A stretch of 43,991 nucleotides of DNA, filler included, from Jimgerdemannia flammicorona (Eukaryota): assembly GCA_003990765.1 (NCBI GenBank). It is 2 parts of 2 records of this genome, joined end to end, with 100 filler letters (N's around TTAATTAATTAA, not from the genome) between each part and the next. Parts side by side here need not be neighbours in the genome. Positions count along the whole stretch, not along the records: positions 22,050 to 43,991 come from RBNJ01001361.1; 1 more part is not named here. One strand, 5' to 3'. Made by a program: the position numbers and the translations under genes. Of the stretch, positions 1-43,991 are shown in pieces (position 1 is the stretch's first letter; each line of letters opens with the position of its first letter). A model generated the notes under the pieces. It ran no database searches. It was not told where the DNA came from and worked only from the letters and a program-made list of their open reading frames with translations.

Positions 1-289
1 CACGAAATTTCCTAATTGGGTATTGTCTGCAGCGATACGCCAATTCAACTAAGCTGGTCTTAGTTTCTCGAACTTCCTGAAATACGGAAAATCCTGAACA
101 TCCAGAACTAGTCCGAAAAAGGACTTTGGTTGAGACGTCAACCCAATCTTGAAATCAATAAGCGTAGAGGACGTACTCCATACGAAATTGATCTTGACCA
201 TAAGAAAACGGTCTTCCAGAATATCCAGAACTTCCAGAAAACCCTTCCAGAACTACGTAACGGTTACCCTAAAAAGCAACCCTCTTACA
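1..289 (+). mobile_element. 3' end of a family-E TG...CA element (runs off window start)
   Basis: Near-identical to the reverse complement of 38938-39226; homology stops exactly at ...CCCTCTTACA (289), the E terminus; retains many CpGs. Confidence 0.85.
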
Positions 290-2333: not shown

Positions 2334-3388
2334 TGTAAGTGCACAACCTCCAAGCTACTGAAATTACACATCCCCCTCTGAACAAGCCACTGAAATCATA
2401 TATAACCTTTGAACAAATCCAGAAATCACATGCAAGATCATGAAGCTGAGTCAAACTAAAGTCACAGTACACAAAGCTGAGTCAAACTAAAGTCACAGTG
2501 CACAAAGCTGAGTCAATATGAAGTCATGGAACACAAGATTTACACAAATAGAATCTTACTAATTAGAACAAAATGTATATATACTGAGTATTGAGACATG
2601 TTGAAACAGAGAACTAAAACAAACTAAACAAATAACCCCAACTCCTGAATATACACAAACATAACCACTGAGATCTACAACTACATCTGTACTGATATTT
2701 GGAATATCATTATCAACTGAGCCACACCCCTTATGAATATCTATAGCCTAGTATCCCTCTACTTCATGGAAGTCTGATGGAATGCCCTGAACATGCTTAG
2801 TAAGACCCACTGAATTGGACAAATCTCAAGCTACTACCAGATCAGCCACCTCCTAGAAGTCATAGTTGAATACTACCATGATAAGACATTACCCAGATAT
2901 CTTAACATCAGAAACTCATTGCCTATAAACATTGAGAACTCTTCTATGAGTATAGTACTGTTATTTTCCATCTCTGAGTTACTACTACCAAAATGGTGAC
3001 TACTCTGTCTTATGGCCAAATAGATGATATGATATAAGAACTCAACTATAAGTATCTCGAGTATGTGCAGACCACAGATAGAACCTTCTCACACCCTGAT
3101 GACCATATCCTGCAAATGTCTCAAGTTGGATATACCATAAAGGACATCTATGATATAATCCGATTTGATGAAGATGAAGCAGATGACAATAATCCCACTA
3201 ATGCTGATATGACCTCCAGCCAAGGATCCCTACCAACCCTGATTACTCTGCCAACCTTGCCAATGAACTTACAATAGTTCATAACTACCTACAAGACTTA
3301 TTGAGACAATAACTACTGGCATAAGTACTAACCTGCATTTATGCCTGATTACTTCAACTACAATGAAGAGACTGGAGAATACAATCTG
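2334..3388 (+). mobile_element. 5' half of a family-E element (3'-truncated), with pseudo-ORF from 2661
   Basis: Starts TGTAAGTGCACAACCTC, exactly where homology to the minus-strand copy at 40983 starts; ORF track 3065-3277 matches 40074-40784 protein (SSQGSLPTLITLPTLP). Confidence 0.85.
2443..2530 (+). repeat. 31-bp tandem repeat (~3 units) in E 5' region, each with TGAGTCA
   Basis: AAGCTGAGTCAAACTAAAGTCACAGT(A/G)CACA units starting 2443, 2474 and partial 2505; about 2 units in the 40983 copy. Confidence 0.8.
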
Positions 3389-5032: not shown

Positions 5033-5504
5033 TGTAACATAGTGGATGCTTACTCTTGAAAGTATGTCGGATTTCTGTATCTTGAAAACTTGATCTTCTC
5101 TGACTCTCGCAGAGTCTTTTGAAGTTGCAGGGGAGGGTGGGTGAGTTCGAAGTGTATCTGCCCACAGGCTTACTAGTTCCTTTGCTATCTCTTTGCTTTG
5201 AACTATTTCGATCTGAGGTTTATTCACTCAAAGATACTGGGTTATTTATACAAGTTTGCTGGCTATGAGATGGTTACTGGGTTATGTGGCTAAGTTATGA
5301 GTCATTTAACACTTTGTGAAATATTTTGCCAGTTGTGAAATACTATACTATATCGAGAAGCTCGATCTCGCACTTTGCGAAATATTTAGCAAGTGGCAAA
5401 ATTGAGGACTACTAACTATGTGGCTATACTACTTTGGGACTGGGTGTGATCAAGTGTCTGTTCCCTATTTCCTTCTTCCGAATCTGGCTATACATACCAT
5501 CATA
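5033..5504 (-). repeat. 3' LTR of Gypsy A
   Basis: Direct repeat of 11234-11699; abuts PPT; has TATAAATA and AATAAA on minus strand. Confidence 0.93.
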
Positions 5505-5541
5505 ACTTCCCCCTGAATAGATGATCTTGCCCCTGAAGCAT

Positions 5542-6003
5542 CTATTTAAACTCCCAGGCTTCAATGGTCTGTAAGGTCTTGTATTGTACGATTTGTTGCA
5601 TTACTGTTTCCCAATGGTATCACCTGACTCAGTTGAAGTCTGAGGGAGTCACTCCTCGCAGGTGGGCTAGTGCTGGTTCATCTTCACAGAATAGCTTGTG
5701 GATTCTCTTAGCAATGATGATCTGGGAATAGGAGAGCTGGCATTCTGCGATCCAATTTTCTTTGGTCATTTCTGGGTCTTGGTTGAGTACTTGGCCAAGT
5801 TTGAAGTACTCTTGAAATTTGTTTCAATGCTGATAGGCCTTGAAGTGTGAGATTCGAGAGAGATGAGTCTGCACAATGCTTTGGATACTGTCATAAGACG
5901 CCTCTATGGTCAGAGGCTTGGTGGTGCACCATTGTCTCTCGATGGCTCTTTGGACAGTGCTAGTGATCTTGAGTACCATTGCAGTACTTTTGTTAATGGC
6001 CAT
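5542..6003 (-). pseudogene. ORF3 of Gypsy A (153 codons, unknown helical protein, env position)
   Basis: MAINKSTAMVLKITSTVQRAIERQWC...QEYFKLGQVL...IAKRIHKLFCEDEPALAHLRGVTP...EAWEFK; 3 internal TGA; same length and position as B ORF3. Confidence 0.8.
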
Positions 6004-11113: not shown

Positions 11114-11233
11114 ATCTATCTTGTCTGGGTATTGGGGCTCGGTTTGTATGGTTGTTCAGGTAGTGGCGGTTGTTCATTGTTCAGCTTGAAAGTGAGGGAT
11201 TCGTCTTGAATCACCAGCCAATGGGCACCAAGT

Positions 11234-11699
11234 TGTAACATAGCAGATGCTTACTCTTGAAAGTACATTAGATTTCTGTATCTTGAAAACTTGATCTTCT
11301 CTGACTCTCGCAGAGTCTCTTGAAGTTGTAGGGGAGGGTGGGTGAGTTCAAAGTGTATCTGCCTGCAGGATTACTAGTTTCTTTGCTATCTCTTTGCTTT
11401 GAACTATTTCGATCTGAGGTTTATTCATTTGAAGATACTGGGTTATTTATACAAGTTTTAGCTATGAGATAGTTACTGGGTTACGTGGCTAAGTTATGAG
11501 TCATTTAACACTTTGCAAAATATTTCACTAGTTGTGAAATGCTATACTATATCAAGAAGCTTGATCTCGCACTTTGTGAAATATTTAGCAAGTGGCGAAA
11601 TCGAGGACTGCTAAATATGTGGCTATACTACTTTGGGACTGGGTGCAATCAAGTGTCTGTTCCCTATTTCCTTCTTCCGAATCTGGCTATACCATCACA
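11234..11699 (-). repeat. 5' LTR of Gypsy A
   Basis: TGTGATGG...TGTTACA on minus strand, followed after 3 nt by the PBS. Confidence 0.93.
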
Positions 11700-15100: not shown

Positions 15101-17877
15101 GATGCTAATGTCCTGATCCATCCCCACTCTCCCCAAAATGGCCCTGTCCCAGCAGTCCCCAATGATTAGATAACAGACACTATTCTGCCTCCAGGGACCT
15201 CCAAACATCCAAAGCCCAGCAGTCCACCATCAAAATCCAGTCAATCCTTGTCCCTAGGCCACTTGCCCAATATGTATACACCCTTCTGTCACTCCACAGC
15301 TCCCTGCTAGTATCCACGAAAGCACTCAGCCTCTTTACTTCCTCCTATGTCTCCAAGCCTCCACTACTCCCTACTGTCCCCCACTCTCCATCAGTTCTAT
15401 CCACCAGTGTATCTCTAACTATATTAAAGTCCCCACTAAGCACATTCACTCCAGCCTCTACCAGTGGCCCTTCCTCCAAGAGCCTCTTCACCCACTCTAC
15501 ACACTCACTCCACACCACAGGATAGTAGCAGGATCCCACTGTAACTGGTTTCTGACCAGTTCGAATCCACTTACCCCAAACCAATCTGTCTTCCCCGTTC
15601 TGTACATCATGTATCCCCCCTCTCCTTCTGACCAGAATTCCAACCTTGTCTTTTCAAATCACCTCTCCTCTCCATTTCTTCATCCATTCCAGTTTATTCA
15701 AATCATCCTTACACCTGACATCCTGCAAAAGAAACTGATTGGCCTCCAATCTTTTCAGCTAAGCAAAAATATATCCTCTACTGCTCCATATATATCTCAT
15801 CCTGTGCCAGGTCCAGACCATGTTCCACATCTTCCTCCTCCTCTTCAGTCCTCTTAGCCTCCAATCTAATCAGAAGTTCCTTGAGCTTCCCATTCTTCTT
15901 CTTCTTGAATTTTTTGTGATATTTCAGGCAGGCCTTCTGTCAGATCTGCAATCCATGCCACGCTGCCCAATAGAAAGCCCTCTCACTAGCAACAACTGCC
16001 AGTCTAGCCTCTCCCTTCTATTCAACCTCATAACCTTCCTCCTCTAGGAAAACTACAAAGATCTCTGCCATCAGTGCCTCCACCACTCTCTCACCCTGTA
16101 GGATATACACCCAATACAAATCACTCATCACTCACAGGTCCACCTCTCCCAACTCCTCCACTGCAAAGTTGTTCATTATCTTACTAATTTATAATAAATT
16201 TTCCACCTCCATTCCCCCAGAAGTTGCTGGCTGCCCTCCATCTAGCATTGATATATTAGTCCCAGTACTTGCAGTCTTATCCCACCTCTCCTCCTGAACA
16301 TCCACCAGTTCATCCTCACCCACTGCCACCATCTGCTCTCCCTTTACTACCTCAGGAACTCCAAAGTATACTCTCTGGACTCCCTGCATGTATACATCTT
16401 CTGCCACCCTACCCCTCAAAGCTGGACCTCATCTAATAAGTTGTGTAGGGGTTAGAGATGGCATTCAGACTCAAAGGTACCATCTGTATAAGGGTTACTA
16501 CTCTTTGCCTCCTCTCCTCCTCCTGGTCCCTTCTCTGCATTCCCTCCCTCCTTGCCAGCCCAAATACTCTCCTTGGCTTCCCCTATGATTTCAATGCCAC
16601 CAGCATCCTCCTTTACTCTATTTTCCAGTTTCACCAACAGCTCCCTCTGTCTCTTGTATCCTTGGAATCTCTCTCACCACCTCTTATCCACCTGAATCCT
16701 CTTTCCATCCACTATTTCCAAATGCATTGACTTGACATACACCTTCTAAGCCTTAGCCCTCCTCTCTATAGCTCTGCTCAGCTCTTCCAGCACCTCCAGC
16801 AGATCCTCTTCCTCCTCCTTACTCCCCTTCACCTTCATCACCTTACACAAGAAAGCCCCCCAGATCATCACTAAGGGCCAGTCTCTTATCTTCTCAGTAG
16901 CTTTCTTCTCTGCCAACCAAACTCAAACATCAATATCCCCAGTTCTGAATGAGGTCTCCTCCCAGACCTGGAACCCAACATCTATTATCTCACCATACTT
17001 GGCCAGGACTTCCTCAACTCTCCTCCTCTTCTCCTCAGCAGTCACCATAGGCACTCCCTTTACCAGTAATTGCATTACTCTGGGGTCTCACCTCAAGCAG
17101 TGTACCATCAGAACACACACCTCTCTAACTATCAACTCTACCTTCAGTGCCTCCTTCAATAGTCCAGCCTCCTCAAAGCTAACCTCTACTCCTTCCAATC
17201 TCTTCACAAACTTCATGGATGCTACTTCTACCAACTGCTTCACAATCAGCCCCAGGACCATTTTTGCCATCACCACTAAGCCCCAGAGGTGACTGCAAAC
17301 TCTGAGATAGACTTCTTGAGTAATTGTGCCACCACCAGCACATTATATCATCCACCAGATTGCTAGGCCTCATGCCTTTCCTACTGCTCAGTCTACTATC
17401 AATAGTTCCATCTAGATTTTTTTCCTAATTACCCATCATGCTCTCATCAGCAGTCACTCCCTCAGCCCCTATACTACCAGCCCCACTACTCTGGCCCCCC
17501 AGAGAGACTCCTCCTTGAGGCTGCTGTCCTGCAGCCTTCATTGTCTCCTTGCCTCTCCTCAGGTAGCCCTCCAGCTTAGCTCTCTGCTGACCCCCCTTCA
17601 TCTTGTCTGCAAAGCTCACCCTCCTAGTCCTCTGACCTCCAGCACCACCCCCTCTCTGACCACATCCTCCCACCAGCAGACCCCTCATGCTTCCTCCCAA
17701 GCCAGGGCTCCTCCCTACATACTGCCAGTTGAATTCACCCAGACCACTCTGCCCAGTATACATCTTGGAATACTCAATAGTTGCTATGATACTAGTAGTT
17801 TTTCTTCAGAAACAGTATTGAAAGTGTTGTCAAAAGATTGTTAAACCTGAATGTTACTAGAGAAAGGACTGAAACTG
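12108..17877 (-). mobile_element. Near full-length L1/Tx1-like LINE (ORF1, APE endonuclease, RT), inactivated
   Basis: APE motifs VLSGDFN, RIDWIL (~15150-15600); RT motifs KNWRPIMLL, FLDQEKTFD, GVPQGDLLS, ADN (13730-14250); A7 tail at 12108-12114; degenerate ~14-bp TSD 12094-12107/17878-17891. Confidence 0.85.
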
Positions 17878-24884: not shown

Positions 24885-25348
24885 TGTGACAGCTGATCCG
24901 AATTAGTAACATGAAATAGGGGAATTAGACATTTGATCACAGTACCTAAATCTGATTCCCAATATAGTATAGCCACATAAATAGCAGTCATATTCTGCAA
25001 AGTACAGAAACTTTAACATTTGCAAAGATTTAGGAGATGTTAGAATCTTTGCAATCAGTGAAATCTTAGCAAATGTTAAAAGATTCAGTACTTGTGAAAT
25101 GAGCCATTACTTAGCCACCTTATAGCTAGCAAACTTGTATAAATAACCCAGCATCTTAGAATGAATAAACCTCAGATCAAAATAGTTCAAAGCAAAGAGA
25201 TAGCAAAGGAACTAGTAAGTCTGTGGACAGATATACTTCGAATTCATCCACCCCTGCATCCCAAGGACTCCGAGGAGTCAGAGAAGATCAAGTATTTAAG
25301 ATATAGAAATCTGACATACTTTCAAGAGTAAGTGTCCACTATGTTACA
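24885..25348 (+). repeat. 5' LTR of Gypsy B
   Basis: TGTGACAG...TGTTACA; TATAAATA at 25138, AATAAA at 25164. Confidence 0.93.
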
Positions 25349-25468
25349 ACTTGGTGCCCATTGGCTGGTGATTCAAGATGAATCTCTCACTTTCAAGCTG
25401 AATAACGAACAACCACCACTACCCAAGCAACCACACAAACCGAGCCACAATACCCAGACAAAATAGAT

Positions 25469-28400
25469 ATGAGACCACCAGTATTCCATAGGTATACCTC
25501 AGATGAATCAATCATTACCTTCATTGATGATTTCAAACAGTATGCTGCTGTAAGGACCCTGACAGCAGCACAGCAAGTAGCCCTCATGCCCTTCAGTCTA
25601 TGAGGTCCTGCCAGAGCAGCATTCATAGCTGCAACCCATACAGGAAATGATGCTGATGCTATACTGACAGCACAGAAGACCTGGCTCCAAAATACATATT
25701 ATACAGATGAGATCAAGCAAGCCCTGAAGGATCAGCTCAATACAATATGCTAAGGAATAAGTGAGGATCCAAACACATTCTATACCAGAATTTGATATTA
25801 GATAATCCTCATGGATTATGCTGCTGCTATCCGAGATCAAGTAGCTGAAGCAACCTTCATGAAAGGAGTTCACCCAGAGATAGCCATGGCCATCCATTCA
25901 TCACCAGTAGTCTTGGATCTGCCACAGAAGGTCACCTATGCTCAGCAATATTGGACAGCCAGACACCCACAAGACCATACAATGGAAAGAGTCACAGGAG
26001 TCAGAATCGAAACACCCAAGGCAACCAGTGTGATCCCTACTATAATGATCAATCGAAACACACCTCAGTCAAAAACTACAGAGCAGCAAAAGAACAGTGA
26101 CCCTATGGAAGAACTTGCCAAGAGATTCGCTGAAATGACCGCCCACCTGGGAGATGTGATAAAAGAAATCCAAGGAAGAAACTGCTGCCCAGTTCAGAAG
26201 TTTGTTGCCACCTTGGACAAGAAGAAAGGTACCTGCTATACCTGTGGAGAAGAAGGCCACTACTCCTATGAATGCATGAGCAAAACCAAGCACAAGGCTC
26301 AACCAAGCAATGCTATACAAAACAAAGAGCAAGCCAATACAATTACCTTCGAGGAAATTGGAGATTCTGATAAAGAAGAATGGGAGGCCTATCTTGCTCA
26401 GACTATTAAGAAGGATGTTTGCAAGGAACCCTACAAGAGACCACCAGGAAGACCCAAGAAGAACTCAGTAGAAAAGCAGATGGAAATGGCCACCAAAAGC
26501 CAAGCCAAAGAGATGGACCAAGATATGGAGCTGGAGCAAGCAGTTCAAGATATTATCTGAGGAACTACCCCAGCCAGTGAAGGAGAAAAAGAAAAGAAAC
26601 TTTGCAAGACCAAGACTTTCAAGTACAATATCTTCAAGGACCTTAGCCAATAAAAGGTCAATGTAACCTTTGGTCAGCTCGCAGAAATCCCAACATTCAG
26701 ACAATAAATGAGGTTTGGACTTGCTGAAACAACCAAGGAGCAAGGATGGAAGATAACTGAGGCCAATAATATTCAAGAGGACTCAGGAGAAGAAAGTGAA
26801 GACAATCGCAAAACCTCTGCCTATGCAATATGCCAAATCGAAGATAGAGTCTTTGAAGTCATCATCGATACTGGAGCAGGAGGATGTCTCCTCAGCAAGA
26901 AAGCAGCAGACCGCCTAGGCTGGGAAGTTGAAGAAGCAATCAAGTTGGTTTTTATCACAGCAGATGGCACAAGAGCCACCCCTCTGGGAAAGATCCGAGA
27001 AGTCCCCATCAAGATTGGAGGAGCAACTATCCCAGTAGATATAATTGTAACCAATGCCACCAACTATGACATCCTCATCAGCAATCAATGGCTCCACAAA
27101 GCCAGGGCAGTAATCAATCTTAATGCCCAGAAGATGCAAATCACCTACCAGGGACAGAAGATATGAATTCCCATCAATGTCAACAAAGGAGTCTTGCCTG
27201 ATATAGAGGAAGAAGAGAGCGAGCAAGAGGAAGCTTATATGGTGACTACTCTGAAGAAAGTTGGATGGACGAATGAAGAAGAATGGTGTAAGAAGATCGC
27301 AGAAGGCTATATACCACAAGGAGTCTGTTCTCATGGGATCAAGATGTACTGTATGGAGCATATCAATGACTACTACCAGTGCACTATCAGAATCAAGAAA
27401 ATCCACCAGGAAAGAAGACAGAAAGCTCTTAAAAAACAGGTCAGAGAAGAGAAGGAGGAGAAAGATGATGAACCACCAGCCCTCCTGGAGAATAGTGATG
27501 ATGAAGAAAAAATTAAGGTCAAGATTCGAAGGACCCACCCTGATGCAGTCCTGCCAGAATATAAGTCAGAAAATGCAGCTGGAATAGACATCACCATAGT
27601 AAAAGCTGTACTAGAACTCCAAACAACCACCCTACTCACAACTGGACTGGAGATGACTATCTCAAAGACCATGTCAGGATCCTCAAGACAAGAAGCAGCC
27701 TGGCCAGAAGTGAAATTACGATTGAAGAAGAAGTCATCGATTCTGACTATACTGGAGAAATCCTACTCATTGCTAGGAATCACAATCTTACAATCTTATT
27801 CCTGATCAAGAAGAAGGACTGATTGGCACAGATGTTGATCTTTCCAATCCTACAACCAAGGATCATAGAAGTCAAGAATTTGGAGAAAATGAAAAGAGGA
27901 AAGAAAGGATTCGGATACACAGGAAGAGGAGTATTCACCAGTACCAAGATCACTGAACTGGAGCATAAGAAGGAGGAAATCACAAACAAGCACAGTTACA
28001 CTATTGGAAATGAATTTCCACTCAAGGAGGAACTCAAGAAAATACTCTACAAATTCGAGGATGTCCTTGTGATGGATTTCAAGGACATCAAGGGAAAGAC
28101 CCCACACTACTATCATGAGGTAGATACTGGAGATACTGAACCAATTTACCAGAAGGCAAGACCTATCCCACCAGCCTACCAAGAATAGCTCAGAGAAGAA
28201 ATCAAGCAGATGGAAGAAGCCAGTATTATTAAAGAAGCCAGCAGCCCCTGGTCTTCACCAGTTGTACTAGTCCCAAAAAAAGGAAGCAAACCTGGAGAAT
28301 TTGCCCCAAGACTCTATGTCAACTACAGAAAGCTCAATGCAGTTACCAAGAAGGATCACCAACCACTGCCCCTCATCAGTGACATCCTTATAATACTGGG

Positions 28401-30639
28401 AGATGAAGCACAGTACTACAGCACTCTGGACTTATACTCAGGATTCCACCAAATCGGACTCACAGAAATGGCAAGTGAAAAGTCAGCCTTCATCACCCCA
28501 GATGGAACCTACATCTACCTACGAATGCTATTTAGGATATGCAATACACTAGCAAGCTTTCAGCAAATGATGAATAAAATCTTCTGCTATGATATGGGAA
28601 GATGGATGATGGTCTATGTCAATGACATAGTCATCTACAGCAAGACACCTGAGGAACACCTGCAGTACATATAGCAGATAATAGAAAGACTGAGAAAGCA
28701 TGGCCTGTATATCAAGTCCAAGAAATGCAAATTTGCGGAAGTTGAGATCTCCTACCTTGGCCATATTATCAATCAAGATGGAATGCACACAGACCCCCTC
28801 AAGATACAAGCAGTAACAGCATACCCAAGGCCCACCACTGTTATAGAAGCCCAAGCCTTCATAGGACTTGCCTCCTACTATTGCAGATTTATCAGAGGAT
28901 TCTCCAATATTGCAGACCCAATCTATGAACTCAACAAGAAGGACACTAAATTCAACTGGACCAGTAGACAACAAAAGCATTTGATGAACTCAAGGTCAGA
29001 CTGACCCAGGCACCCATCCTCAGATGACCCAATTGGACCCAAGAGTTTATCCTTCAGACAGACACAAGTATACAGAGACTAGGAGTAGTTCTAGCTCAAA
29101 AGGAAGACAAAAAAGAGTATGTCATTGCATACTTAAGCTGAGGAACCTGAGGAGCTGAAAAAGAATATGAATTCTACAAGTTGGAATGCCTCACAGTCAT
29201 CTGGGCTGTGGAAAAGTTCCACTACTATCTGGCTGGAAGACACTTCACCATTCAGACAGATCACTCAGCTCTCACCTGGCTACTGACAACTGGACAACCC
29301 AAAGGAATCTATGCCAGATGGATAATGAAGTTACAAGCCTATGACATAACCATTGTACACTGTCCTGGAAGAACAAATTCCAATGCAGATACTCTCTCAC
29401 AGACACCTCGAAAAACCTCCAACCAATAAATCAATTATGAATAAGGAGCTCTACTATGGAATCATCACATATCTAGGACAGTGAAAGATGCCCCAACATC
29501 TGGAAGAATAGATGCAAATGATTATCAACAGAACATGGAAACAATTCGAAACTGATAGACAAACACTGAAGAAAGGAAAACTACTAGTCATTCCAGAACA
29601 CAAGAAGGAGCAAGCAATGAAATCAGTACATGAACTTGGCCATCTAGGAGGAATGAATACATACAACAAAGCAAGAAGAACAATATGGTGGCCAGGAATG
29701 GAGAAAGATATCAGACAATTTGTCAAAACCTGCGACAAATGCCAGAAACAGAAACAAGACCAACAAAACCAAGCCCCAGAATCAGCACATATAAAACCAG
29801 TACCATTTGCCCACATAGCAATAGATGTAATTGGCCCTCTACCCTTGACCCTGGTAGGTAACCAATATATCATTGTCATCATAGACCTTTTTATGAAGTG
29901 GATAGAAGCAGGACCCCTCAAGGAAGCCAATGCACAGTCAATCACTGATTTCTTCTACAAAGAAATCATCTGCTGGTTCAAGACCCCAATGCAAGTAACT
30001 ACAGATAGAGGAACAGAATTTGTGAACCAGTTCTTTAAGGTTCTCTACAAGAAGTACAAGATCCAGCAAATTTGGACTACAGCCTATCACCCTCAAGGAA
30101 ATGGACAAGCAGAAAGAACCAACAAGACCCTCAAGAATGTTATTGCCAAGATCTGTGATAACTATGAAAACTGGGATCACTATCTGCCAATAGCATTATC
30201 TGCTCTCCGAGACATCAGATCACAAAGTACCCACTTTACCCCTTGAGAAATGCTGTTTGGAGAAGAAAGTTCTCAAGAAACCCTATTGTCCAATGGGGAT
30301 GCTGTATGGAAACATGTGGATGGAGAAATGCGGAGACTACACCAAATCAGGAAGAAGGCTGAGGATTACATAATGAAGGCACAGGCACTACAATGGAAGA
30401 ATGCAGAAAAAACCCACAAACCCCTGGAGATTATCAAGATAGGAGACAAAGTCCTGATGTATCGGAACATGGTAGAAGCCTCATGGTCACGAAAACTGGA
30501 GCCTAAGTGGGAAGGACCTTACCTTGTACAAGATATAAAAGGAACCACCTTTTGGCTACGAAAACTCTCAGGCACAATCATCCTCACTACTTTCCACCAA
30601 AACTGACTCAAGAAGTATCATGACCAGTTAATGAAATAA
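25469..30639 (+). pseudogene. gag-pol of Gypsy B
   Basis: CYTCGEEGHYSYEC, IIDTGAG, dUTPase, LDLYSGFHQI, YVND (decayed YVDD), ECLTVIWA, H-x3-H...CDKC, IDVIGP, TDRGTEF, NGQAERTN, KWEGPY; gag and protease in one frame; no chromodomain seen. Confidence 0.93.
27517..27925 (+). pseudogene. dut: dUTPase domain inside pol of Gypsy B (frameshifted)
   Basis: AGIDI, VIDSDYTGEI (shifted frame), AQML, RGKKGFGYTG. Confidence 0.9.
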
Positions 30640-31081
30640 TACTGCTGCCCTCAGAATTACTAGCATGGCCCAGCGAGCCATTGAAAGACAGTAGTGTTCT
30701 ACTGAGCCACCAACAATGGAAGAATTCTTTGACAGCATCCAGAGTATAGTGCAAACATACTTGTCACAAATCTCACATTTCAAGACCTACCAGAACTGAA
30801 CCGAGTTCCAGAAATACTTCAAGTTGGGACAGCTACTGAATTCAAGACTGAAGATGGGAAAAGAAGACTGGATCAGAGAATGTTAGCTCTCCTACATTCA
30901 GATCACAATTGCAAAAAGAGTGCACAAGTTATTCAAAGATGATGAGTCAGCCTTAGCCCACTTCTGAGGAGTAACCCCAGAAGACTTTGGATATATCAAG
31001 AGACAATATTAGAAGGACGTAATGACACAAATCACACAGTATAAGGAAATACAAATTGTAGAAGCCTGGGAATTTGAGTGA
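30620..31081 (+). pseudogene. ORF3 of Gypsy B (153 codons)
   Basis: ATG overlaps pol end as in A; QRAIERQ...DSIQSIVQT...QKYFKLGQLL...IAKRVHKLF..DESALAHF.GVTP...EAWEFE; internal stops are consistent with C>T/G>A changes. Confidence 0.8.
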
Positions 31082-31122
31082 ATAGGATGCTCCAGAGACG
31101 AATCACCTATTCAGGAGGAAGA

Positions 31123-31586
31123 TGTGATGGCTGATCTGAATTAGTAACATGAAACAGAGGAATTAGACATTTGATCACGGTACCTGAATCTGATTCCCAA
31201 TATAGTATAGCCACATAAATAGCAGTCATATTCTGCAAAGTACAGAAACTTTAACATTTGCAAAGATTTAGGAGATATTAGAATCTTTGTAATTAGTAAA
31301 ATCTTAGCAGATGTTAAAAGATTCAGCACTTGCAAAATGAGCCATTACTTAGCCACCTTATAGCTAGCAAACTTGTATAAATAACCCAGCATCCTAGAGT
31401 GAATAAACCTCAGATTGAAATAGTTCAAAGCAAAGAGATAGTAAAGGAACTAGTAAGTCTGCAGGCAGATACACTTCAAACTCATCCACCCCTGCATCCC
31501 AAGGACTCCAAGGGGTCAGAGAAGATCAAGTATTCAAGATACAGAAATCTGACATACTTTCAAGAGTAAGCATCTGCTATGTTACA
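31123..31586 (+). repeat. 3' LTR of Gypsy B
   Basis: Direct repeat of 24885-25348, preceded by PPT. Confidence 0.93.
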
Positions 31587-31590
31587 ATAG

Positions 31591-35299: not shown

Positions 35300-36832
35300 T
35301 AGAGCTATAGCTAGGAGTAGAGATAAGACTACTGTTAGCTATATAACTGAAGATCTGGAAAAAAAAAATCCAGATATAACTACTGATAGTAGAACTAAGC
35401 AGATAGGATGCAGAGAGAAGGGAGATCTGACTGATAATATAATAGGCCTGACAGTGGCTCTATTACTTAAAAAATCAATCTTAGAATTTGTTATCACATT
35501 ATACTTCTGGAGACTAGTGGTAATAGCAAAGATAGTACTGAGACTAATCTTAAAGCAGATGGCTGGAATGGCTTCAGTGAAGTTCTTAAGGGGGAGAGAG
35601 TGGAGGTGGACTTTGAGGAGGCAGAGTTCTTGAAGACAGCCTTGGAGACTAGGTTGGTGATTAGAGAGATAGTGATACCAATAATATACTGCTTGAGGTG
35701 AGACCCCAGAGTGGTGCAGCTCTTGGTAAAAGAGATATCTATAGTAATAATGATTGAGATAAGAAGGAGAGTGGAAGCAGTGATAGCAGAATATGGCAAT
35801 ATAATAGATATTGGATTCAGAGTCTGGGAGGGGATGATGTTCTAGACTGAAGATATGGATGGCTATCTCAGGCTTACTGAGTGAAAGACTACTAAGAAGA
35901 CTTATAACTGACTCTCAGTGATGATGTAGAGAGTATTTATTTGTAAGATAACAAGGATAAAGAGTAGTGAGAAGAAGAAGAATCTATTAAAGGTCCTGAA
36001 GGAGCTTAGTAGAGTAGTAGAGTATAGAGCAGCAGTATAGTAGGCTTATATAGTATTAATATACTTAGAGATAGTGAATGAGAAGAGAATATATATAGAC
36101 AAAGTATTGTGAAAGAAGGCTCAGAGGTACAAGAGATAGTAGAACCTGTTGGTGAGTTTGGCAAATAGGCTTGCAGCATTAAATATGAGCACTTGGGCAG
36201 ATAATAGAGCTAGAGGATTACTGGGAGGTTGCTAAGCATGTGGTGGAAAGTCAAGAGACTAGAGATCAGTGGCTCTATGATGAAGGTATACTTGAAGTTC
36301 AGAAAGAGGAAGAGAAGCTAGAGGTGAGGGCTGATGCTCAGAACAAAAAGAGTATGGAGGATATAGAGATAAGAAGTATATATAGAATTCAGTTTAGAGT
36401 ATCTGATATAGTAAAGAAGAGACAGATGGTTGGTATTATAGAGGATGGACTACAGAATGTCCTAAAGAAAGAGTGGGATGAGTTAGTAAGTATAAGTGTA
36501 GATATTATTATTAGGGGGGGGGGGGAGACTATTGATCCCTAGTGGGAAGTATATTAGAGACTTTTGATAGATAATTAAGATGATGGATGACTTGGCTGCT
36601 GAGGAGCTGGAAGAGGTAAACTTGAGAGTAATCAGTGAGGAATAATGGGTATGAGTGTTGAGAGATAACAGACTAATAGAAAAACTAAAGGCTGAGATAC
36701 TAGCTATCGTTTTAGAGAAGGAAGATTATAAGGTTAATAAGATAAAAGAGACTGAATTAATGATTATAGCTAGATATTAAGCTACTTTCTAATCTAAACA
36801 GCAGCAGGATTTATAACTTTGGCAAGAGATAT
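35300..36832 (+). mobile_element. LINE ORF1 region (diverged subfamily), left of element C
   Basis: Aligns with reverse complement of ~15930-17470 (TGCTTGAGGTGAGACCCCAGAGT); continues at 41043; left boundary approximate. Confidence 0.75.
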
Positions 36833-37038
36833 TGTGACATGCGTAATTGACAACAGAGTACTGGTGACTGCTAAGATCAGATGACATAATGGCATGATAA
36901 TCGAATAGACAACCTGACCCATTAGGTGATCATCCCAAAAGGAGCAATGATAATCTGAGCCAAAAGGAAGACTATGTTATTTAAAGAACCATACTCTGCC
37001 TCAGGAATCAGCACCAAAGAACAAGTACCCACCACACA

Positions 37039-37965
37039 ATGCCTCCTATCCACTGCCCCAACCAGACCTCCCGCCACTCTTCCCCCTTGCCTAGCCCAAA
37101 GACTCTAATCCTTGAAGCTATCAAGAAGGCTATTTGGCACCCAGACACCTCTGAACATCTGAACTTCTACACCAAGGACCTTGGACACTTCATCAATTAC
37201 CAGTATATAATGACCCAACAGCTCAAAGATACCACTGAATGAATGACCCTCTGGCATGATTATGAAATTGGACACCACCTTTGTAATGAAACCCAAGAAG
37301 ACAACCAAGAAGACCTCATTGCCGAAATGTTAACCACCAGCTAGCTAATCAAGAGAGCCCTCTGTGTCTACCAAATCTTCTGCCATATTCCCTGAGCTAT
37401 AGCACACTTACAAGGAGTGACTGCTGGAAGTCTTGCCTGTCTCTCAACTGAAGTTGCAGACTGGATAGAATCAGAAGTAGCCAACTCTATTGGTAGTAAC
37501 TGGGTCACTGTAGGAAGCCAACAAACTGAGCCCACTCAACCAGGCTTTCACACTACTCTACTCTGAGACAACCATCAAGAGCACCTAATGAGTTTCATAG
37601 AAATCTTTGAAGGACCACCCATTACCATTACAATACCTGTTGGAGCAACCCCAACTACTCACCACCCTGTCAGCTACAATTTGCACCTCATCATTTGGGA
37701 ACCAAATCAAGAAGTCTCAGAAGTCTCTACCAATACAGAAACTGAAGGATCTAAGGAAGAAGAAGAGGAGGAACAAAGAATCTACTAATCCTCTGTCCAC
37801 CTTCAAGCAGTCCAAGGGTTGGAGAATGTCATTGAAGATGATTGGCCACAATTCTACCCCCTCACCTCCTGGCCAGCACTCCCACTCTTTGAAGAATAGA
37901 ATGAAGAAGTCACAACCCAGCAAGATGATTGGTTCACTGATGAAGGGTACTTTACCATTCAGTGA
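37039..37965 (+). pseudogene. Element C ORF (~308 codons; ORF3-like domain plus acidic tail)
   Basis: Single frame with 6 internal stops consistent with C>T/G>A changes; HDYEIGHHL...ALCVYQIFCHIP.AIAHLQGVT resembles ORF3 EYFKLGQVL...AKRIHKLFCEDEPALAHLRGVT. Confidence 0.7.
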
Positions 37966-38209
37966 TCCAACATCCGTTTCCTCAGTCTGGTCAGCCAATA
38001 TTTATCAGCAAGTCAGTAACATCCGTTTCCAGTGATATCACCCCCAACAACCGAATCCAGCACTGGTACTCACCTTATCCCAATTCAGTGATCTAATGTC
38101 TGTTTCCTCAGTCCAGTCAGCCAATGTTTGTCAGCAAGTCAGCAACATCCATTTTCAGCGATACTACTCACAACATCCTTATCCAGCACTAGCACTCATC
38201 TTATCCCAA
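37958..38209 (+). repeat. Two 126-bp tandem units upstream of the element C TATA box
   Basis: Units start TTCAGTGATC at 37958 and 38084, with a third start TTCGGTG at 38210. Confidence 0.85.
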
Positions 38210-38283
38210 TTCGGTGCAAACAATTGTCACACCCATATTCAGCAATTAAACCACCACAACGTAGTATACCTTAGCCCCCCCCC

Positions 38284-38337
38284 ATAGCTAGCAGATTTGT
38301 ATAAATAACCCTATATCTTAGAGTGAATAAACCTCAG
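38284..38337 (+). promoter_or_regulatory. LTR-type TATA plus polyadenylation block shared with A/B LTRs
   Basis: TAGCTAGCAGATTTGTATAAATAACCCTATATCTTAGAGTGAATAAACCTCAG vs B LTR TAGCTAGCAAACTTGTATAAATAACCCAGCATCCTAGAGTGAATAAACCTCAG. Confidence 0.75.
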
Positions 38338-38937
38338 TTAGTTTGTGTTTAAAGTAAAAAGGATTACAGAGAAACCTCACTGCCTCCAAGAGACCGGATA
38401 AATTCTGAGAATAAGATAACTAGAGCAATGATTGCTTAAGGTTTGAGTTAAAGAATTTTCTCTTGCCACAGAAAACATTCAAGATTCGCCGCTAAGAAAA
38501 GCCACACGAAAAGTCATTCAGTTCAGTTTAAGACCTGCTGCTAAAGGAAAGTCATACAAAAAACCACCAACCGCCACTGAGATCCCACCAGCCCAACTGT
38601 CATGCATTCGACCCAACTGTCATACATTCGGAGCCAACCGCCATGCATTCGAGACACGCCATTCAAGTGTTAAGACCCCAGCCAAGGAATCCAAGGATAC
38701 TTAGCTTAGGAAAGCCAGCACCATCATCATTCACCTAACAAGCCAGACGGACGAGTTACCCTTTACCCGCTGCGCCACGAACTGTATATATTCAAGAAGT
38801 AATTCACTGCTAGGAAAATTCATCAACCACTAAACAACTGAGCCTTCACCATACGAATCGGATGAACCGATCATATAACCATTGACCCGCAACCATTGCA
38901 AATGCACACAGTCATATACCACATGCTCCACTAAGTG

Positions 38938-40983
38938 TATAAGAGGGTTACTTTTTAGGGTAACCATTACGTAGTTCTGGAAAGGTTTTCTGGATATTCT
39001 GGATGTTCTGGAAGACCGTTTTCTTATGGTCAAGATCAATATTGTATGGAGTACGTCCTCTATACTTATTGATTTCAAGATCGGGTTGACGTCTCAACCA
39101 AAGTCCTTTTCTGGACTAGTTCTGGATATTCAGGATTTTCTGTATTTCAGGAAGTTCAAGAAACTAAGACCAGCTTAGTTGAATTGGCGTATCGCTGTAG
39201 ACAATACCCAATTAGGAAATTTCGTGATGGGGTTAGGAGTGGGACCTAACAGGGAGCAAGAGCGGATTTACTTAAGAGTGGTTTGTGGGTTATGGAATAG
39301 GTTTATTTGCTATTCATGATATTGCTATACTAAGAGTATTTGTGTGAAGGGATATTGTGGGGAAGTATTCAGGAATGTTCTTGTGTGTTCAAGTCTGTTC
39401 AAGTCTGAGATTCTGAGGTCTGAGAGAGGGAGTATTTATACTGGTGAGGGGCTATCTGGACTATGCTAAATATGGATGTAGCACTAAGTGCTTTGCTGAG
39501 TCGGAATGCAGTCCCGTAGTACAAGTGTGATCTGACATGTCAAGAGATCATCTGACTGCTGAGTCAGTTCACAGTCACATCGTACAAGGCTAATCTAACT
39601 ATACTATGACTGCTAGGCTATTTATGGGTTTAGGCACTGTCTGGGTAGTCCTCGATGACATCACCATCGATTGCATCATCTCTGATAAAGTAGTCATCTA
39701 GAAAGAGTGGTTCGCGGATTACTTCTCCTTGTTCGCTGAGGTAATAATACATTGGAACTTCATCACCATTCCACAGGATAGCATCATCCGTCTCATATGC
39801 TGGATAAGGTGTTGGTGGGCGAAGGAGGGGTGCATTGTTTTCACTTTCGTCAGATTCGCTGTCTGTATACCTTCTGTAGGTTATAACACTATGAGTCGCA
39901 GGGTTATAGTAAGCTGGTGGCTGTGGTTCATGTTGCTCACACTCAGGTGGTGGAGTGGTTGGTTTGATCTCGAGGGTTGTCTGGAGGTATAGGTTGTGTT
40001 CTCCAGTCTCTTCATTGTAGTTGAAGTAATCGGGGGTGAATGCAGATTGGTATTCATGCTAGTGGTCATTGTCTCAATAAGTCTCGTATGTAGTTATGAA
40101 CTGTTGTAAGTTTATTGGCAGAGTTGGTAGAGTGATCAGAGTTGGCAGAGATCCTTGGCTAGAGGTCATGTTGGCATCAGAGGGATCATTGTCTTCTGCT
40201 TCATCTTCATCGAAGTGGATTATATTGTAGATGTCCTTCATAGCGTATCCAACTTGGGGCATTTGCAGGATTTGATCATTGGGGTGTGGGAAGGTTTTGT
40301 CTGTGGTTTCGATGTACTTGAGGTACTTGTGGTTGAGTTCTTGTATCATGTCATCAATTTGGCCATAGGACAGGGTAGCAACCATTTTGCTGGTAGTAAC
40401 TCGGAGGCGGGAAATAATGGTACTGTACTCATAGAAGAGTTCTTGATGTTTGCAGGCAATGAGCTTCTGGTGTTGAGACATCTGGGTAATGTCTGTATCG
40501 TGGTGGTGTTCGACCATGTCTTCCAGGAGGCGGCCGATCTGGTAGTAGCTTGAGATTTGTCCGATTCGGTGGGCCTCGCTAAGCATGTTCAGAGCATTCC
40601 ATTGGGCTTCCACAAAGTAGAGGGGTGCTAGGCTATGGATATTCATGAGGGGCAGAGGGAGTGTGGCTCGGTTGACAATGGCATTCCAAATGTCAGCACA
40701 GATATGGTTGTAGATCTCAGTGGTCATATTTGTGTGTTTGGAAGTTGTAGTTGTTGTTTGTTTTGATTCTCTGATTTGACACATCTCGGTGCTCAGTATA
40801 TATGTATTTAGTCCTGATTGGTAAGATTCTGTTTGTGTAAATCTTGTATTCCGTGACTTTGTATTGACTCAGCTTTGTGTGCTGTGACTTCAGTTTGACT
40901 TAGCTTCGTGATCAAGCAGATAATTTCCAGATTTGTTCAGAGGTTGCGTGTAATTTCGGTGGCTTAGAGGTTGTGTACTTACA
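38938..40983 (-). mobile_element. Element E: complete 2046-bp TG...CA element with one ORF, nested in C
   Basis: Minus strand TGTAAG...CTTA(T/C)A; 5-bp TSD AAGTG (38933-38937/40984-40988); both ends confirmed by independent copies (2334 start; 289 end); TATAAATA at 39433-39440 and AATAAA at 39302-39307 downstream of ORF. Confidence 0.85.
39630..40727 (-). pseudogene. Element E ORF (365 codons; ORF3-like N-domain, acidic/Pro-rich tail)
   Basis: MTTEIYNH...SSYYQIGRLL...QKLIACKHQELFYEYSTIISRLRVTT; only two internal stops (TGA 40074-76; TAG 40059-61, which is TGG in the 2334 copy), then 142 open codons to TAA 39630. Confidence 0.75.
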
Positions 40984-41042
40984 AAGTGGCACATTGAGCT
41001 GTGCTTGAAGCAACTAGAGATACAAACCACATGCCACAATAT

Positions 41043-43991
41043 ATACTAAATATAAAGAGAAGATAGGCCAAGAATAATGAGATAATTACTGAGATATTGG
41101 CTGGTCCAGAGGTAAAGAAGATTGAGATGATAGAGACTATTGTAGAGTATAGTCTGGACTTGGCTTGAAAGGAGATAAGTGTGGAACTATGAGAAAGTTG
41201 GGCTTATTCTCTAATATTATTTCCTATAAACAATATAACTAACATTTTCTCACTAAATATAAATAGTTTAAGGAGCTCTGTGAGATATGGAAATATTTTT
41301 ACTTAGCTAAAAAGATTGGATACCAATCTTTTCTTACTGCAGGATATATATTATAAGAGGGATTTAGATGAATAAGAGTAGACAAAAGAATGAGATAGTA
41401 TAGTAGTTTAGAGAAACAAAGTGGAAATCTTAATGCAGAATAGTAGAAGAGATTTTAGTGAGATTAGAGGTTAGAAGAACTACTTGGTTTGGAGAGAGTA
41501 GTAGAGGTCTGAGTAGAAGCTAGTAGTTGTCAGCTCTTGCTACTACTCTGTAGATTATAGAAACTGAGTAGAGTATATAAATAGTCTTTGTAAGTGTGGG
41601 GCTCTGGCTGAGACTAGAGTAGATATGCTTAGTGGGAACTTCAACATGGTATAGAGTATACTGTTGGATAGAACTAATAGTGAATAAGATACTGGAGGCA
41701 GAAGTAGTGATCTGAATATCTGGGAGGAAGTAGAATAGTTGAGTTCTTTAGTAGATACTAGCAGAGTATTATAAAGAGACAAGAGGGTCTATATCTACTG
41801 AATGAATAGTTTTATTATAAGAATTGACTAGATGCTAATAACTGAATACTGGGGGATAGATATCTAGATTAATCTGGAGGTTAAGTAGTCTCATTTTATA
41901 TATCTTCTGACCTATCTATAGAATTTGCTTCTATTTTAGGTATTATCTCTCTTTAACTTTATAATTGATTTGAAGTCTACTTATATCAATATACCTATAC
42001 ATATCTATACTGGTAGTCTCTACTCAGAAATCAACTCTCTTCTTTAATTTCTCAACTCCTGTCATATCTCTAAGCAAACAGTCTTTTCTTTGACTGATAA
42101 TATCCTCAGTTAATAAGTATTATAGATAGCTAATGATAAGAAGCTCTCTATAACTATAAAGAACTACTTCTATAACCTAGTTACTTATTAGGTGACCTAC
42201 TAGTGGGGCCCTACTCTTCAGTATACTAATTTTCCTCTATTTAACATAGTTTTAAAGAATATTACCACTAACCCTCCTCTCAATATCTCATCACTCAAAT
42301 ATCTTCCTATTATCTACTTATACCTCTAGTATATTTATCTTTACTTATATCTTAACTCTCTACTCAGTACTATAGTCTAGGCTATTATTATATAGTCTTC
42401 TATAATCTCATAAGAATAGGTAAATTAATAATCCAGAATGGTTAGGTTTTTAATTTATTCTATACTCTGGGGCTAAACTCAACTAATATAAGTATGAAAT
42501 GATAGTATTAGGTAATGACCTGATGGGAGGGGATATCATTAGAACAATTGTCCCTGTAGGAGATACTGTGCAGTATTTGGGTATTTATCTTTCAATTTAT
42601 AGATCAGTCTTACTAAGATCTTAGTGGGAGCAGTAGGTGGCTATTTGGAGAGAGGCCCTGTAGAGTTAGAGAGGCAGTCACATCTCTTTAGTGAGTTATG
42701 TTTCAATTTTGAATATCTACTAGCTGCTGAAGCTGTGGTATTTGGTATATCATCTGGACTTTCTAGTTTGAGTGGTAAAGAGACAATTGAAGTTGGCTAA
42801 AGGTTGGATCTAGGCTAGGAAGAGAAGTCAGATTAGCTGAGAAATTTTGTCATTACCAATAGCTAGAGAAGGCCTTTGGCTGGTTAACTTCCTGAAGAGA
42901 CTATATTATTAGAGAGCTTGGTGGTTGAAGAGAGCTGTGGAACTGAGGGGTAGTAGCTAGACTTCTCTGATAAAAAAGGTCTGAGAGATGAGATTCTCAC
43001 TAAGAAGCTCTACAGGAGATCTACTCTCTTTAGTTAGACTTCAGAATAGTGGGTGTATGCAGTATAAGAGCTTCTGATAGGGAGTAGTTGATAGAATATA
43101 CTACATTGATATCTGCTAGCAGAAGGCTGAAGGAGAGATATATTGGGGCCTAATAATGTAGAGATATAATCAAGTATTATTGGGGGGTACTCTTCTAATT
43201 GACTTCAATATTAGTGATGGGGTTGAGTGTCAGAGAGAGTTGAGATAGGATATATTGCCTATTAGCTAGCAGATGGTGAGTATTGAAAAGGAGTGAGACC
43301 GGAATAGGGTTTGTATCTAGAGTGCAGAGATATGGCATTGGCTACCACCTAAGTACTGAGTGGTTTGGTGGTATATATTGAGATAGAATATCATGCTCAA
43401 TTTTCATTCAGATTACCTTATAGAGGAGAGTAGCTTTAATTGTAAGAAGTATTATAATATATGACAGAAATGGAGATTTGTGCAGATATTAGAATATTGA
43501 CTGAGAGAGTGCAAGATACTTAGAGACTTTTAGTTAGAGATTGGGAATTGATTGGATATTGTGAGAAGGGGGGATAGTGAGAGGGGTCAATGAGAGAATC
43601 TGAGAGATAGATTGGTGGGGGGGATTGAAAATGAGTAGCTTACTGTTGGTTGAGTTTTAGCTATATAGGTAGGGCTAGCTGATTATTTATTTTTAAGAAA
43701 GAGAGATATGGGAGTTTGGGAGAGTGGCTGACAAAATGAGAATGGTTGGTGGTGGATGTCTTGATAGGCTGGTGGCTGGAATGAGGTCTGCAGAGAGGTT
43801 GATGATATTGTTTGATAGAGAAGATTTGAGAGTAAAGTAGAGAGAGGGCTGTGATAATAGGTAATAAAGTGGTATTCAAGAATGAGAGTATAAAGATAGG
43901 CCCTCTAAGGGGGATTGGATAGTGGGATGGGGTACTGAATTTATATTTAATAAACTGATAATAAATAGTGAAGTCTAAGAGATAATAAAAA
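41043..43991 (+). mobile_element. LINE continuation: endonuclease remnant, RT core missing/replaced (~41900-42420), C-terminal part and 3' end
   Basis: GNFNMV (decayed GDFN), RID.ML; 42470-43991 aligns with reverse complement of 12108-13650; ends in an A-rich 3' terminus. Confidence 0.75.

What the first reader, a model, noticed from the sequence alone, without database searches (positions are those of the whole stretch)
38938..40983. Element E: 2-kb TG...CA unit with 5-bp TSD, own ORF and LTR signals but no gag/pol
Seen: both termini are defined by independent copies in this window, the AAGTG TSD is perfect, and the order is tandem repeats, TATATA, 365-codon ORF, TATAAATA, AATAAA, terminus. 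That is the layout of an LTR with a gene in U3, analogous to MMTV sag (established for retroviruses, unusual for fungal Ty3/Gypsy). Three pieces within 44 kb suggest high copy number. Inference: a giant gene-carrying solo LTR, or a self-contained non-autonomous element using an integrase in trans.
Basis: partly seen in the sequence, partly recalled or inferred. Interest (0 to 1): 0.78.

Follow-up and report, generated by a model that had tools for sequence, protein, structure and literature searches.

The report
Gene-carrying LTR of a fungal retrotransposon
This 2-kb unit is the leftover end repeat of a very abundant fungal jumping gene; unusually, the repeat carries a conserved protein gene of unknown family and what look like two promoters sharing one control motif, so it may help switch the element on.

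Summary
E is the solo LTR of a ~10.6-kb Ty3/Gypsy chromovirus (gag, dUTPase, PR, RT, RH, IN, chromodomain), not an independent unit. Of 37 full-length copies, 16 abut a tRNA-iMet PBS, 17 a PPT, 3 are solo; 6 of 7 two-LTR elements share a 5-bp TSD; empty paralogous sites confirm the insertion. U3 holds a 365-codon gene: broken here (2 stops), open in other copies, under purifying selection (shared-transversion omega 0.18), no known family. New here: one 21-bp box sits twice before each of two TATA boxes (2+2 in 32 of 37 LTRs), and the protein's tail is acidic and aromatic like an activation domain. Two other Gypsy families in this window carry a probably related helical domain (their mutual kinship firm, link to E borderline). 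Best guess for function: an element-encoded transcriptional booster with its own U3 promoter (about 0.35); its few basic residues argue against direct DNA binding, and no expression is shown. The scan reported LTR-borne genes, including a 365-residue one, on other DNA of this genome. Corrections: the left end reads TA, not TG, and the frame is interrupted.

The parts
38938..40983 (-). Solo LTR of family E (2046 bp; sense = minus strand; begins TGTAAG at 40983, ends TA at 38938 where other copies end CA)
38933..38937 (+). Left copy of the 5-bp target-site duplication AAGTG
   Evidence: empty sites in 9 of 9 paralogs
40984..40988 (+). Right copy of the 5-bp target-site duplication AAGTG
40853..40904 (-). 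Two copies (31-bp spacing) of the 21-bp box GTGACT-n6-TGACTCAGC upstream of TATA 1 (40853-40873, 40884-40904); holds an AP-1/Gcn4-like TGACTCA (motif name recalled)
   Evidence: 2 or 3 boxes in 37 of 37 LTRs
40797..40802 (-). TATATA, candidate TATA box of the internal (U3) promoter, about 70 nt before the ATG
   Evidence: 34 of 37 LTRs; 48-50 nt from the proximal box in 34 of 37
39630..40727 (-). U3 accessory gene, 365 codons plus stop; in this copy interrupted by stops at codons 218 and 223; helical N-terminal domain (about 1-145) and acidic, aromatic, proline-rich tail
39495..39578 (-). Two more copies of the same 21-bp box (39558-39578, 39495-39515), opposite orientation, upstream of TATA 2
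   Evidence: 2 boxes in 33 of 37 LTRs, 1 in 4
39433..39440 (-). TATAAATA, candidate TATA box of the genomic-RNA promoter
   Evidence: 37 of 37 LTRs; 54 nt from the proximal box in 33 of 37
39302..39307 (-). AATAAA, candidate poly(A) signal
   Evidence: 36 of 37 LTRs; use not shown
1..289 (+). 3' end (R-U5 side) of another family-E LTR, 94% to E, cut by the window start
2334..3387 (+). 5' half of an older, heavily mutated family-E LTR (79-82%), with three boxes at 2445-2527
36833..41038 (+). Host of the insertion: solo LTR (about 2.15 kb without E) of a second Gypsy family (F) that also carries a gene inside its LTR (308 aa in natural copy L121)
30620..31081 (+). Post-integrase ORF3 of a third Gypsy family (D), about 150 aa, homologous to the family-F LTR gene and probably to the E N-terminal domain (start approximate)

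Best explanation
Shown (about 0.97): E is a solo LTR, left by recombination between the two LTRs of a ~10.6-kb Ty3/Gypsy chromovirus of a fungus; the family copied itself by ordinary tRNA-iMet-primed reverse transcription and integrase insertion with 5-bp duplications. Shown (about 0.95): its U3 carries a real 365-codon accessory gene that was kept by selection while the family was active and was later broken copy by copy by C-to-T/G-to-A decay. Inferred (about 0.7): the LTR has two promoters, one before the gene and one for the genomic RNA, controlled through the same 21-bp box, and the gene's message ends at the LTR's own poly(A) site, so each LTR, solo or paired, is a complete small transcription unit. 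Inferred (about 0.35): the protein is a transcriptional booster of the element, working like foamy-virus Tas in logic: an acidic activation-type tail brought to the shared boxes, more likely by docking on a host AP-1/Gcn4-type factor than by binding DNA itself, giving positive feedback on both promoters. The confidence below is for the whole chain, function included.
For: Flank classes 16 PBS / 17 PPT / 3 solo / 1 internally deleted of 37; TSD in 6 of 7 two-LTR elements; Pfam dUTPase, protease, RVT_1, RNase H, rve, Chromo over their cut-offs; PBS pairs 12 nt with the host tRNA-iMet; fungal host by Chitin_synth_1 over cut-off. Gene: ATG and TAA in 37 of 37, 3 distinct indels in 1095 nt of ORF against 32 in about 975 nt outside, 107 of 110 stops at CGA/CAA/CAG/TGG codons; shared transversions omega 0.18, p 2e-7, off-frame controls 0.67 and 8.5; a 64%-identical homolog from another sample keeps the frame. 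Promoters: boxes 2+2 in 32 of 37 LTRs, none elsewhere in the LTR or in the rest of the window, best diagonal 18/21 reached in 0 of 200 shuffles; box-to-TATA gap 50 nt and 54 nt. Tail 151-365: net charge -39, 22% D/E, 4% K/R, 14% W/F/Y, 52 of 177 acidic-aromatic 39-aa tiles against 0 of 771 in pol and 0 of 312 in integrase; the tail itself is under selection (omega 0.13) and the family-F gene has a similar tail. No transmembrane stretch.
Against: The E protein is poor in basic residues (N-domain net -10, at most 2-3 K/R per 10 aa, no basic cluster), which argues against direct DNA binding and a classical nuclear signal. Acidic-aromatic tiles are not specific: the N-terminal extension of the same element's Gag has 45 of 387. 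The family-D relative has no tail (153 aa), so the shared domain cannot depend on it. Family F shows no motif shared between its two candidate promoters above shuffles. TGACTCA is explained by a host bZIP factor alone (recalled). The upstream TATATA lies in a genome where C-to-T decay makes TA-rich words. No structure (pLDDT 31 and 50) and no named homolog support any function.
Confidence: 0.35

Rival explanations
1. Same anatomy, but the protein acts on the element's RNA: nuclear export of unspliced genomic RNA (as CERV of Cer1 or HIV Rev) or read-through of the poly(A) signal in the 5' LTR.
For: A Ty3/gypsy precedent exists (PMC10309623, abstract). The tail-less family-D form sits right behind integrase, where a splice-expressed RNA factor would fit; its domain has net charge -1 and a small basic patch. 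AATAAA lies downstream of TATA 2, so the 5' LTR must suppress it.
Against: E's protein is strongly acidic with no arginine-rich motif; no similarity to any known export factor was found.
Confidence: 0.2
2. The protein is an anti-silencing factor that shields the element from the host's methylation or RNAi; placing it in the LTR lets thousands of LTRs supply it in trans.
For: The family has been hit hard by cytosine decay (CpG 0.32, CpA 0.12 per site) yet reached thousands of candidate places; three Gypsy families of two distant lineages carry a probably related domain.
Against: No similarity to a known suppressor; D and F also carry the domain and are as decayed; the link is circumstantial.
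Confidence: 0.2
3. The gene is an ordinary sense 3' accessory ORF (ORF3) with a structural or chaperone role in the particle; its place in U3 is a by-product of the PPT having moved upstream, and it is expressed only from the 3' LTR by splicing or reinitiation.
For: In family D the related ORF lies between integrase and the PPT, in E and F inside the LTR; sense 3' aORFs are common (PMC7264820, parts 1-2 read; PMC5408684 passages).
Against: The box-TATA arrangement before the ATG is conserved with the same spacing as at the main promoter, which a passive shift would not create.
Confidence: 0.2
4. E is a self-contained non-autonomous element that moves as a 2-kb unit with an integrase supplied in trans.
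For: 3 of 37 copies are single units with a perfect TSD.
Against: 34 of 37 copies are 5' or 3' LTRs of longer elements; E holds no internal PBS/PPT pair; LTR:gag candidates about 2:1. Solo LTRs with TSD are the expected recombination product.
Confidence: 0.02

Closest known systems
Fungal chromodomain Ty3/Gypsy elements (chromoviruses) with dUTPase and occasional 'add. ORF' (Novikova et al. 2010, PMC2864245; section 5 and passages read)
   Same: gag with CCHC knuckle, PR-RT-RH-IN-chromodomain, dUTPase at the front of pol (as PosPlaTy3-3 there), PBS, PPT, TSD.
   Different: LTR of 2.04-2.10 kb with a whole gene in U3; the text read does not place any additional ORF inside an LTR (the figure and supplements were not seen).
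MMTV sag (PMC12548423, passages)
   Same: Coding gene inside U3, duplicated with every LTR and present in solo LTRs.
   Different: Retrovirus of mice; Sag is a superantigen acting on host immunity; E's protein has no transmembrane stretch and no detected similarity.
Foamy-virus Tas/Bel1 (PMC517496, passages)
   Same: Second promoter for an accessory gene, response elements at both the internal and the LTR promoter, C-terminal acidic activation domain (in E: composition only).
   Different: Tas's promoter is internal to the genome, not in U3; Tas binds DNA directly, whereas E's protein lacks basic clusters; no homology; activity untested in E.
Sense additional ORFs between pol and the 3' LTR (aORF-3S; PMC7264820 parts 1-2 of 3 read) and shared ORF3s of bdelloid elements (PMC5408684, passages)
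   Same: Family-wide conserved extra ORF at the 3' end; one ORF type found in distant lineages of one genome.
   Different: Those lie in the internal region; in E and F the gene lies downstream of the PPT, wholly in the LTR.
CERV of C. elegans Cer1 (PMC10309623, abstract and outline only)
   Same: Novel accessory protein of an LTR retrotransposon with a regulatory role.
   Different: Made from a spliced mRNA, acts on RNA export; no similarity detected.

Membership tests
LTR of a Ty3/Gypsy chromovirus | Two direct copies flank an internal coding region | tested here: met
   7 contigs with both LTRs; internal 6.2-6.5 kb in 8 of 8 mapped, 1.3 kb in one deleted copy
LTR of a Ty3/Gypsy chromovirus | TG...CA termini | tested here: met
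   34 of 37 (one search printed 35; the window copy was mis-ended by the script and reads TG...TA); 3 differ by one transition
LTR of a Ty3/Gypsy chromovirus | PBS complementary to a host tRNA next to the 5' LTR; PPT next to the 3' LTR | tested here: met
   12-nt match to the host tRNA-Met(CAT) of initiator type; purine tract before 17 of 37 LTRs
LTR of a Ty3/Gypsy chromovirus | Order PR-RT-RH-IN, chromodomain at the end of IN | tested here: met
   Pfam hits over cut-off incl. Chromo E 5.6e-18
LTR of a Ty3/Gypsy chromovirus | 4-6 bp TSD around whole elements and solo LTRs | tested here: met
   6 of 7 two-LTR elements, 3 of 3 solo LTRs
LTR of a Ty3/Gypsy chromovirus | Clade placement by RT phylogeny (Tcn1, MarY1 etc.) | not tested
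   No reference RT set was fetched
Independent non-autonomous element (TRIM/LARD/MITE-like) | Copies are mostly single TSD-flanked units with their own terminal structure | tested here: not met
   3 of 37
U3-encoded accessory gene (MMTV sag-like layout) | Whole ORF downstream of the PPT, inside both LTRs, under coding constraint | tested here: met
U3-encoded accessory gene (MMTV sag-like layout) | Transcribed from a promoter within U3 | not testable with these tools
   Only conserved motifs; contigs cannot show starts
Foamy Tas-like transactivator | Shared response element at both promoters | tested here: inconclusive
   A shared box exists; what binds it is unknown; absent in family F
Foamy Tas-like transactivator | C-terminal acidic activation domain | tested here: inconclusive
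   Composition fits; activity untested; Gag N-extension scores alike
Foamy Tas-like transactivator | Sequence-specific DNA binding | not testable with these tools
   Low K/R content argues against
env-like ORF3 | Transmembrane segment | tested here: not met
   Highest 19-aa Kyte-Doolittle mean 0.86
Shared D/F/E helical accessory domain | Detectable homology of E's N-domain to the D and F proteins | tested here: inconclusive
   D-F firm (hhalign 82-88%, 0 of 25 shuffles); a D+F profile ranks E's N-domain first among 3384 non-member segments but at E 0.017-0.22; hhalign D+F vs E reached by 4 of 25 shuffles, D vs E 0 of 25, F vs E 8 of 25

The most novel reading that the evidence does not exclude
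A fungal chromovirus has turned its LTR into a self-contained autoregulatory gene cassette: a U3 promoter and the genomic promoter share one response box, and the U3 gene encodes an activator of an undescribed helical family that several unrelated Gypsy lineages of this genome have traded, so that thousands of LTRs, solo ones included, could drive the family in trans. It would be a Tas-like circuit evolved independently outside the Retroviridae.
Probability: 0.25. Interest if true: 0.82.

Novelty: new variant of a known kind. Interest (0 to 1): 0.52.

Why it matters
Solo LTRs are treated as non-coding debris; here each one carries a selected gene with its own candidate promoter and poly(A) signal. 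The family is large (about 2100 gag and 4300-4500 LTR first-look candidates; if these were whole elements, near a tenth of the assembly), so an element-encoded regulator could help explain how some fungal genomes inflate despite cytosine-based defence. The shared box and the acidic tail make the function of a retrotransposon extra ORF, a long-open question, testable with simple yeast reporters.

Tried and rejected
Family libraries: no Pfam, NCBIfam or PHROG match over cut-off for the E, D or F proteins (best E about 0.003-0.008, unrelated names). Homolog searches: only P0002 and P0003 for E (P0004 is a repeat protein, chance); the pooled profile found 13 short unnamed proteins, all close to D, F or E; none among 351-2000-residue proteins (weak). 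PDB sequences: nothing under E 0.6. AlphaFold2: pLDDT 31 full length, 50 for the N-domain, all helical; fold searches gave only generic helical bundles, best Z 6.9, and no viral match under E 0.1: uninformative. ESM Atlas: unnamed clusters only (0.91 with low recognition for E; 0.95 unnamed for D): leads not pursued. Metagenome, viral-contig and phage scans: nothing for E; for D one real locus, L147, of 2 returned, phage hits chance. A recalled likeness of the helical domain to DUF3102/DUF1016_N found no support in the Pfam scans and could not be tested by profile. Expression: no RNA holder listed; contigs of two runs only guessed to be RNA cover parts of E including pieces of the ORF, with summed depth concentrated at 39036-39371; contig depth cannot rank parts or show starts, so this is not used as evidence. 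First tRNA pattern found nothing. A shared promoter box in family F was sought and not found. Literature: 10 searches found no paper describing a gene wholly inside the LTR of a fungal retrotransposon; the library lacks most subscription papers, and figures and supplements of PMC2864245 were not seen. PMC3248453 and PMC10085805 passages held nothing on LTR-borne genes. No complex prediction was sent.

Full report
1. Observation. The unit spans 38938-40983 (2046 bp) between two AAGTG copies. The flank is itself a repeat, and 9 of 9 paralogous copies examined show one AAGTG/AAGTA at the junction, so the duplication is a true insertion scar. The element reads on the minus strand. Its left end is TA in this copy, TG in others. 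The 365-codon frame (40727 to 39630) has stops at codons 218 and 223 here. Two other pieces lie at 1-289 and 2334-3387.

2. What E is. A genome search gave 6132 first-look candidates; 40 were scored and 30 loci fetched, then 16 flanking stretches. These best-scoring loci held 37 full-length copies of 2038-2100 bp. Sixteen are followed by a PBS, 17 preceded by a purine tract, 3 (the window copy among them) are solo with a 5-bp TSD, and 1 closes an internally deleted element. Seven contigs hold both LTRs; 6 share a 5-bp TSD at the outer ends, C6610 does not. The internal region is 6508-6519 bp in 6 of 8 and about 6230 bp in 2 of 8 and encodes Gag with a CCHC knuckle, then dUTPase, protease, RT, RNase H, integrase and a chromodomain. 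The PBS pairs over 12 nt with the 3' end of the genome's initiator-type tRNA-Met. Chitin_synth_1 matches over cut-off mark the host as a fungus. First-look candidates are 4310 for R-U5, 4462 for the ORF's N-part and 2126 for gag; they are not copy numbers, but a ratio near 2:1 fits mostly paired LTRs. LTR pairs are 93-94% identical against a mean of 91% between all copies; differences are mostly C-to-T/G-to-A, highest at CpG (0.32) and CpA (0.12), so part of the divergence is post-insertion decay and LTR dating would overstate age.

3. The gene is real. It is open over 365 codons in 2 of the 37 copies and in 8 further loci picked by protein score. ATG and TAA are kept in 37 of 37; there are 3 distinct indels in the ORF against 32 in the slightly shorter rest of the LTR; 107 of 110 stops fall at CGA, CAA, CAG or TGG codons. 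Using transversions only, to avoid the decay signal, alleles shared by several copies give omega 0.18 (p 2e-7), singletons 0.53, and the two other frames 0.67 and 8.5. A 64%-identical protein from another sample keeps residues 115-364. No library names it (see Tried and rejected). It has a predicted helical N-domain (low confidence), no transmembrane stretch and few basic residues, and a tail with net charge -39 rich in aromatic residues and proline that is itself under selection (omega 0.13).

4. Two promoters with one box. The 21-bp box GTGACT-n6-TGACTCAGC (pattern read from these copies) occurs 2+2 times in 32 of 37 LTRs, 2+1 in 4 and 3+2 in 1, nowhere else in the LTR and only in E pieces within the window; the best cross-match (18 of 21) was reached by 0 of 200 shuffles. 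The proximal box lies 48-50 nt before TATATA in 34 of 37 and 54 nt before TATAAATA in 33 of 37. It contains TGACTCA, the AP-1/Gcn4 site (recalled). This is sequence evidence for co-regulated promoters; no start site is shown. Family F has no such shared box.

5. Relatives in the same window. After earlier scan notes pointed to similar genes in other families, I translated the 3' ends of the two other Gypsy families here. Family F, whose solo LTR (36833-41038) hosts E, carries a 308-aa gene inside both LTRs, also with an acidic tail. Family D carries a tail-less ORF of about 150 aa between integrase and the 3' LTR, open in a little-mutated metagenome element. D and F are homologous (hhalign 82-88%, 0 of 25 shuffles). 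The link to E is collinear by eye and a D+F profile ranks E's N-domain first among 3384 segments, but only at E 0.017-0.22, and profile-profile scores are borderline (4 of 25, 0 of 25, 8 of 25 shuffles). I put it at about 0.7. E's RT is only 36-40% identical to those of D and F, yet E and D share a 50-residue Cys/His mini-domain at 41-46% and all three have dUTPase, which suggests module exchange between lineages (inference).

6. Mechanism. Replication is ordinary Ty3/Gypsy; solo LTRs arise by LTR-LTR recombination (established knowledge). Because the gene lies downstream of the PPT it is copied into both LTRs at each cycle. The most likely expression route is a U3 promoter with polyadenylation in the same LTR. 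For function I favour a transcriptional booster (0.35): shared boxes plus an activation-type tail match the logic of foamy-virus Tas (PMC517496, passages), but the low basic content points to tethering by a host factor rather than DNA binding, the Gag extension has similar acidic tiles, and D lacks the tail. RNA export or read-through (0.2), anti-silencing (0.2) and a passive ORF3 (0.2) remain open.

7. Known and new. Chromoviruses with dUTPase and extra ORFs are known in fungi (PMC2864245, section 5 and passages). Extra 3' ORFs are reviewed for plants (PMC7264820, parts 1-2 of 3) and rotifers (PMC5408684, passages) and lie in the internal region. A gene in U3 is known from MMTV (PMC12548423, passages). 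Ten searches of the open library found no fungal retrotransposon with a gene wholly in its LTR; this is a limited library. The scan noted LTR-borne genes in this genome before, one of 365 residues; those notes are not independent support. The shared promoter box and the tail composition are not mentioned in the few lines of them that I saw.

8. Verdict. Real feature, mostly explained: a solo LTR of a canonical element with an unusual, selected U3 gene and a striking two-promoter design. New variant of a known kind; interest 0.52; the autoregulatory-cassette reading has probability about 0.25 and would merit about 0.82.

Noticed in passing
window 36833-41038 (+), without E: Solo LTR of family F, about 2.15 kb, with its own internal gene and 126-bp tandem repeats before the TATA; many copies sit in (AT)n tracts and its PBS looks like tRNA-Pro (recalled).
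   Followed up: partly
window 24885-31587 (+) and 5030-11692 (-): Two full family-D Gypsy elements (465-bp LTRs, PR-Cys domain-dUTPase-RT, no chromodomain seen) with an ORF3 right behind integrase.
   Followed up: partly
L041:3715-3865 and window about 27270-27415: A 50-residue Cys/His mini-domain shared by families E and D at 41-46% identity, on different sides of the protease; no Pfam match; possible zinc binder.
   Followed up: partly
L041:1423-2300: Family E Gag has an N-terminal extension of about 300 aa with no Pfam match and an acidic-aromatic stretch.
   Followed up: no
window 39036-39371: Contigs of two runs guessed to be RNA pile up here far more than over the rest of E, while DNA candidate counts are flat; a lead for short R-region transcripts only, since contig depth cannot rank parts.
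   Followed up: partly
L004, L005, L009, L013, L018, L026, L052: Family-E LTRs often lie next to or inside other E LTRs, usually in opposite orientation; with thousands of copies this may be chance or chromodomain-guided targeting.
   Followed up: no
window 38289-38330 and 31380-31420: Families D and F share a TATA-to-AATAAA module in otherwise unrelated LTRs.
   Followed up: no
G000:C5259:5073-10495: Family-E element deleted from mid-gag straight to the 3' LTR, PPT lost, outer TSD intact.
   Followed up: yes
window 12400-17800, 35300-36600, 41500-43700: Decayed LINE-like (endonuclease/RT) pieces by translation; not examined.
   Followed up: no
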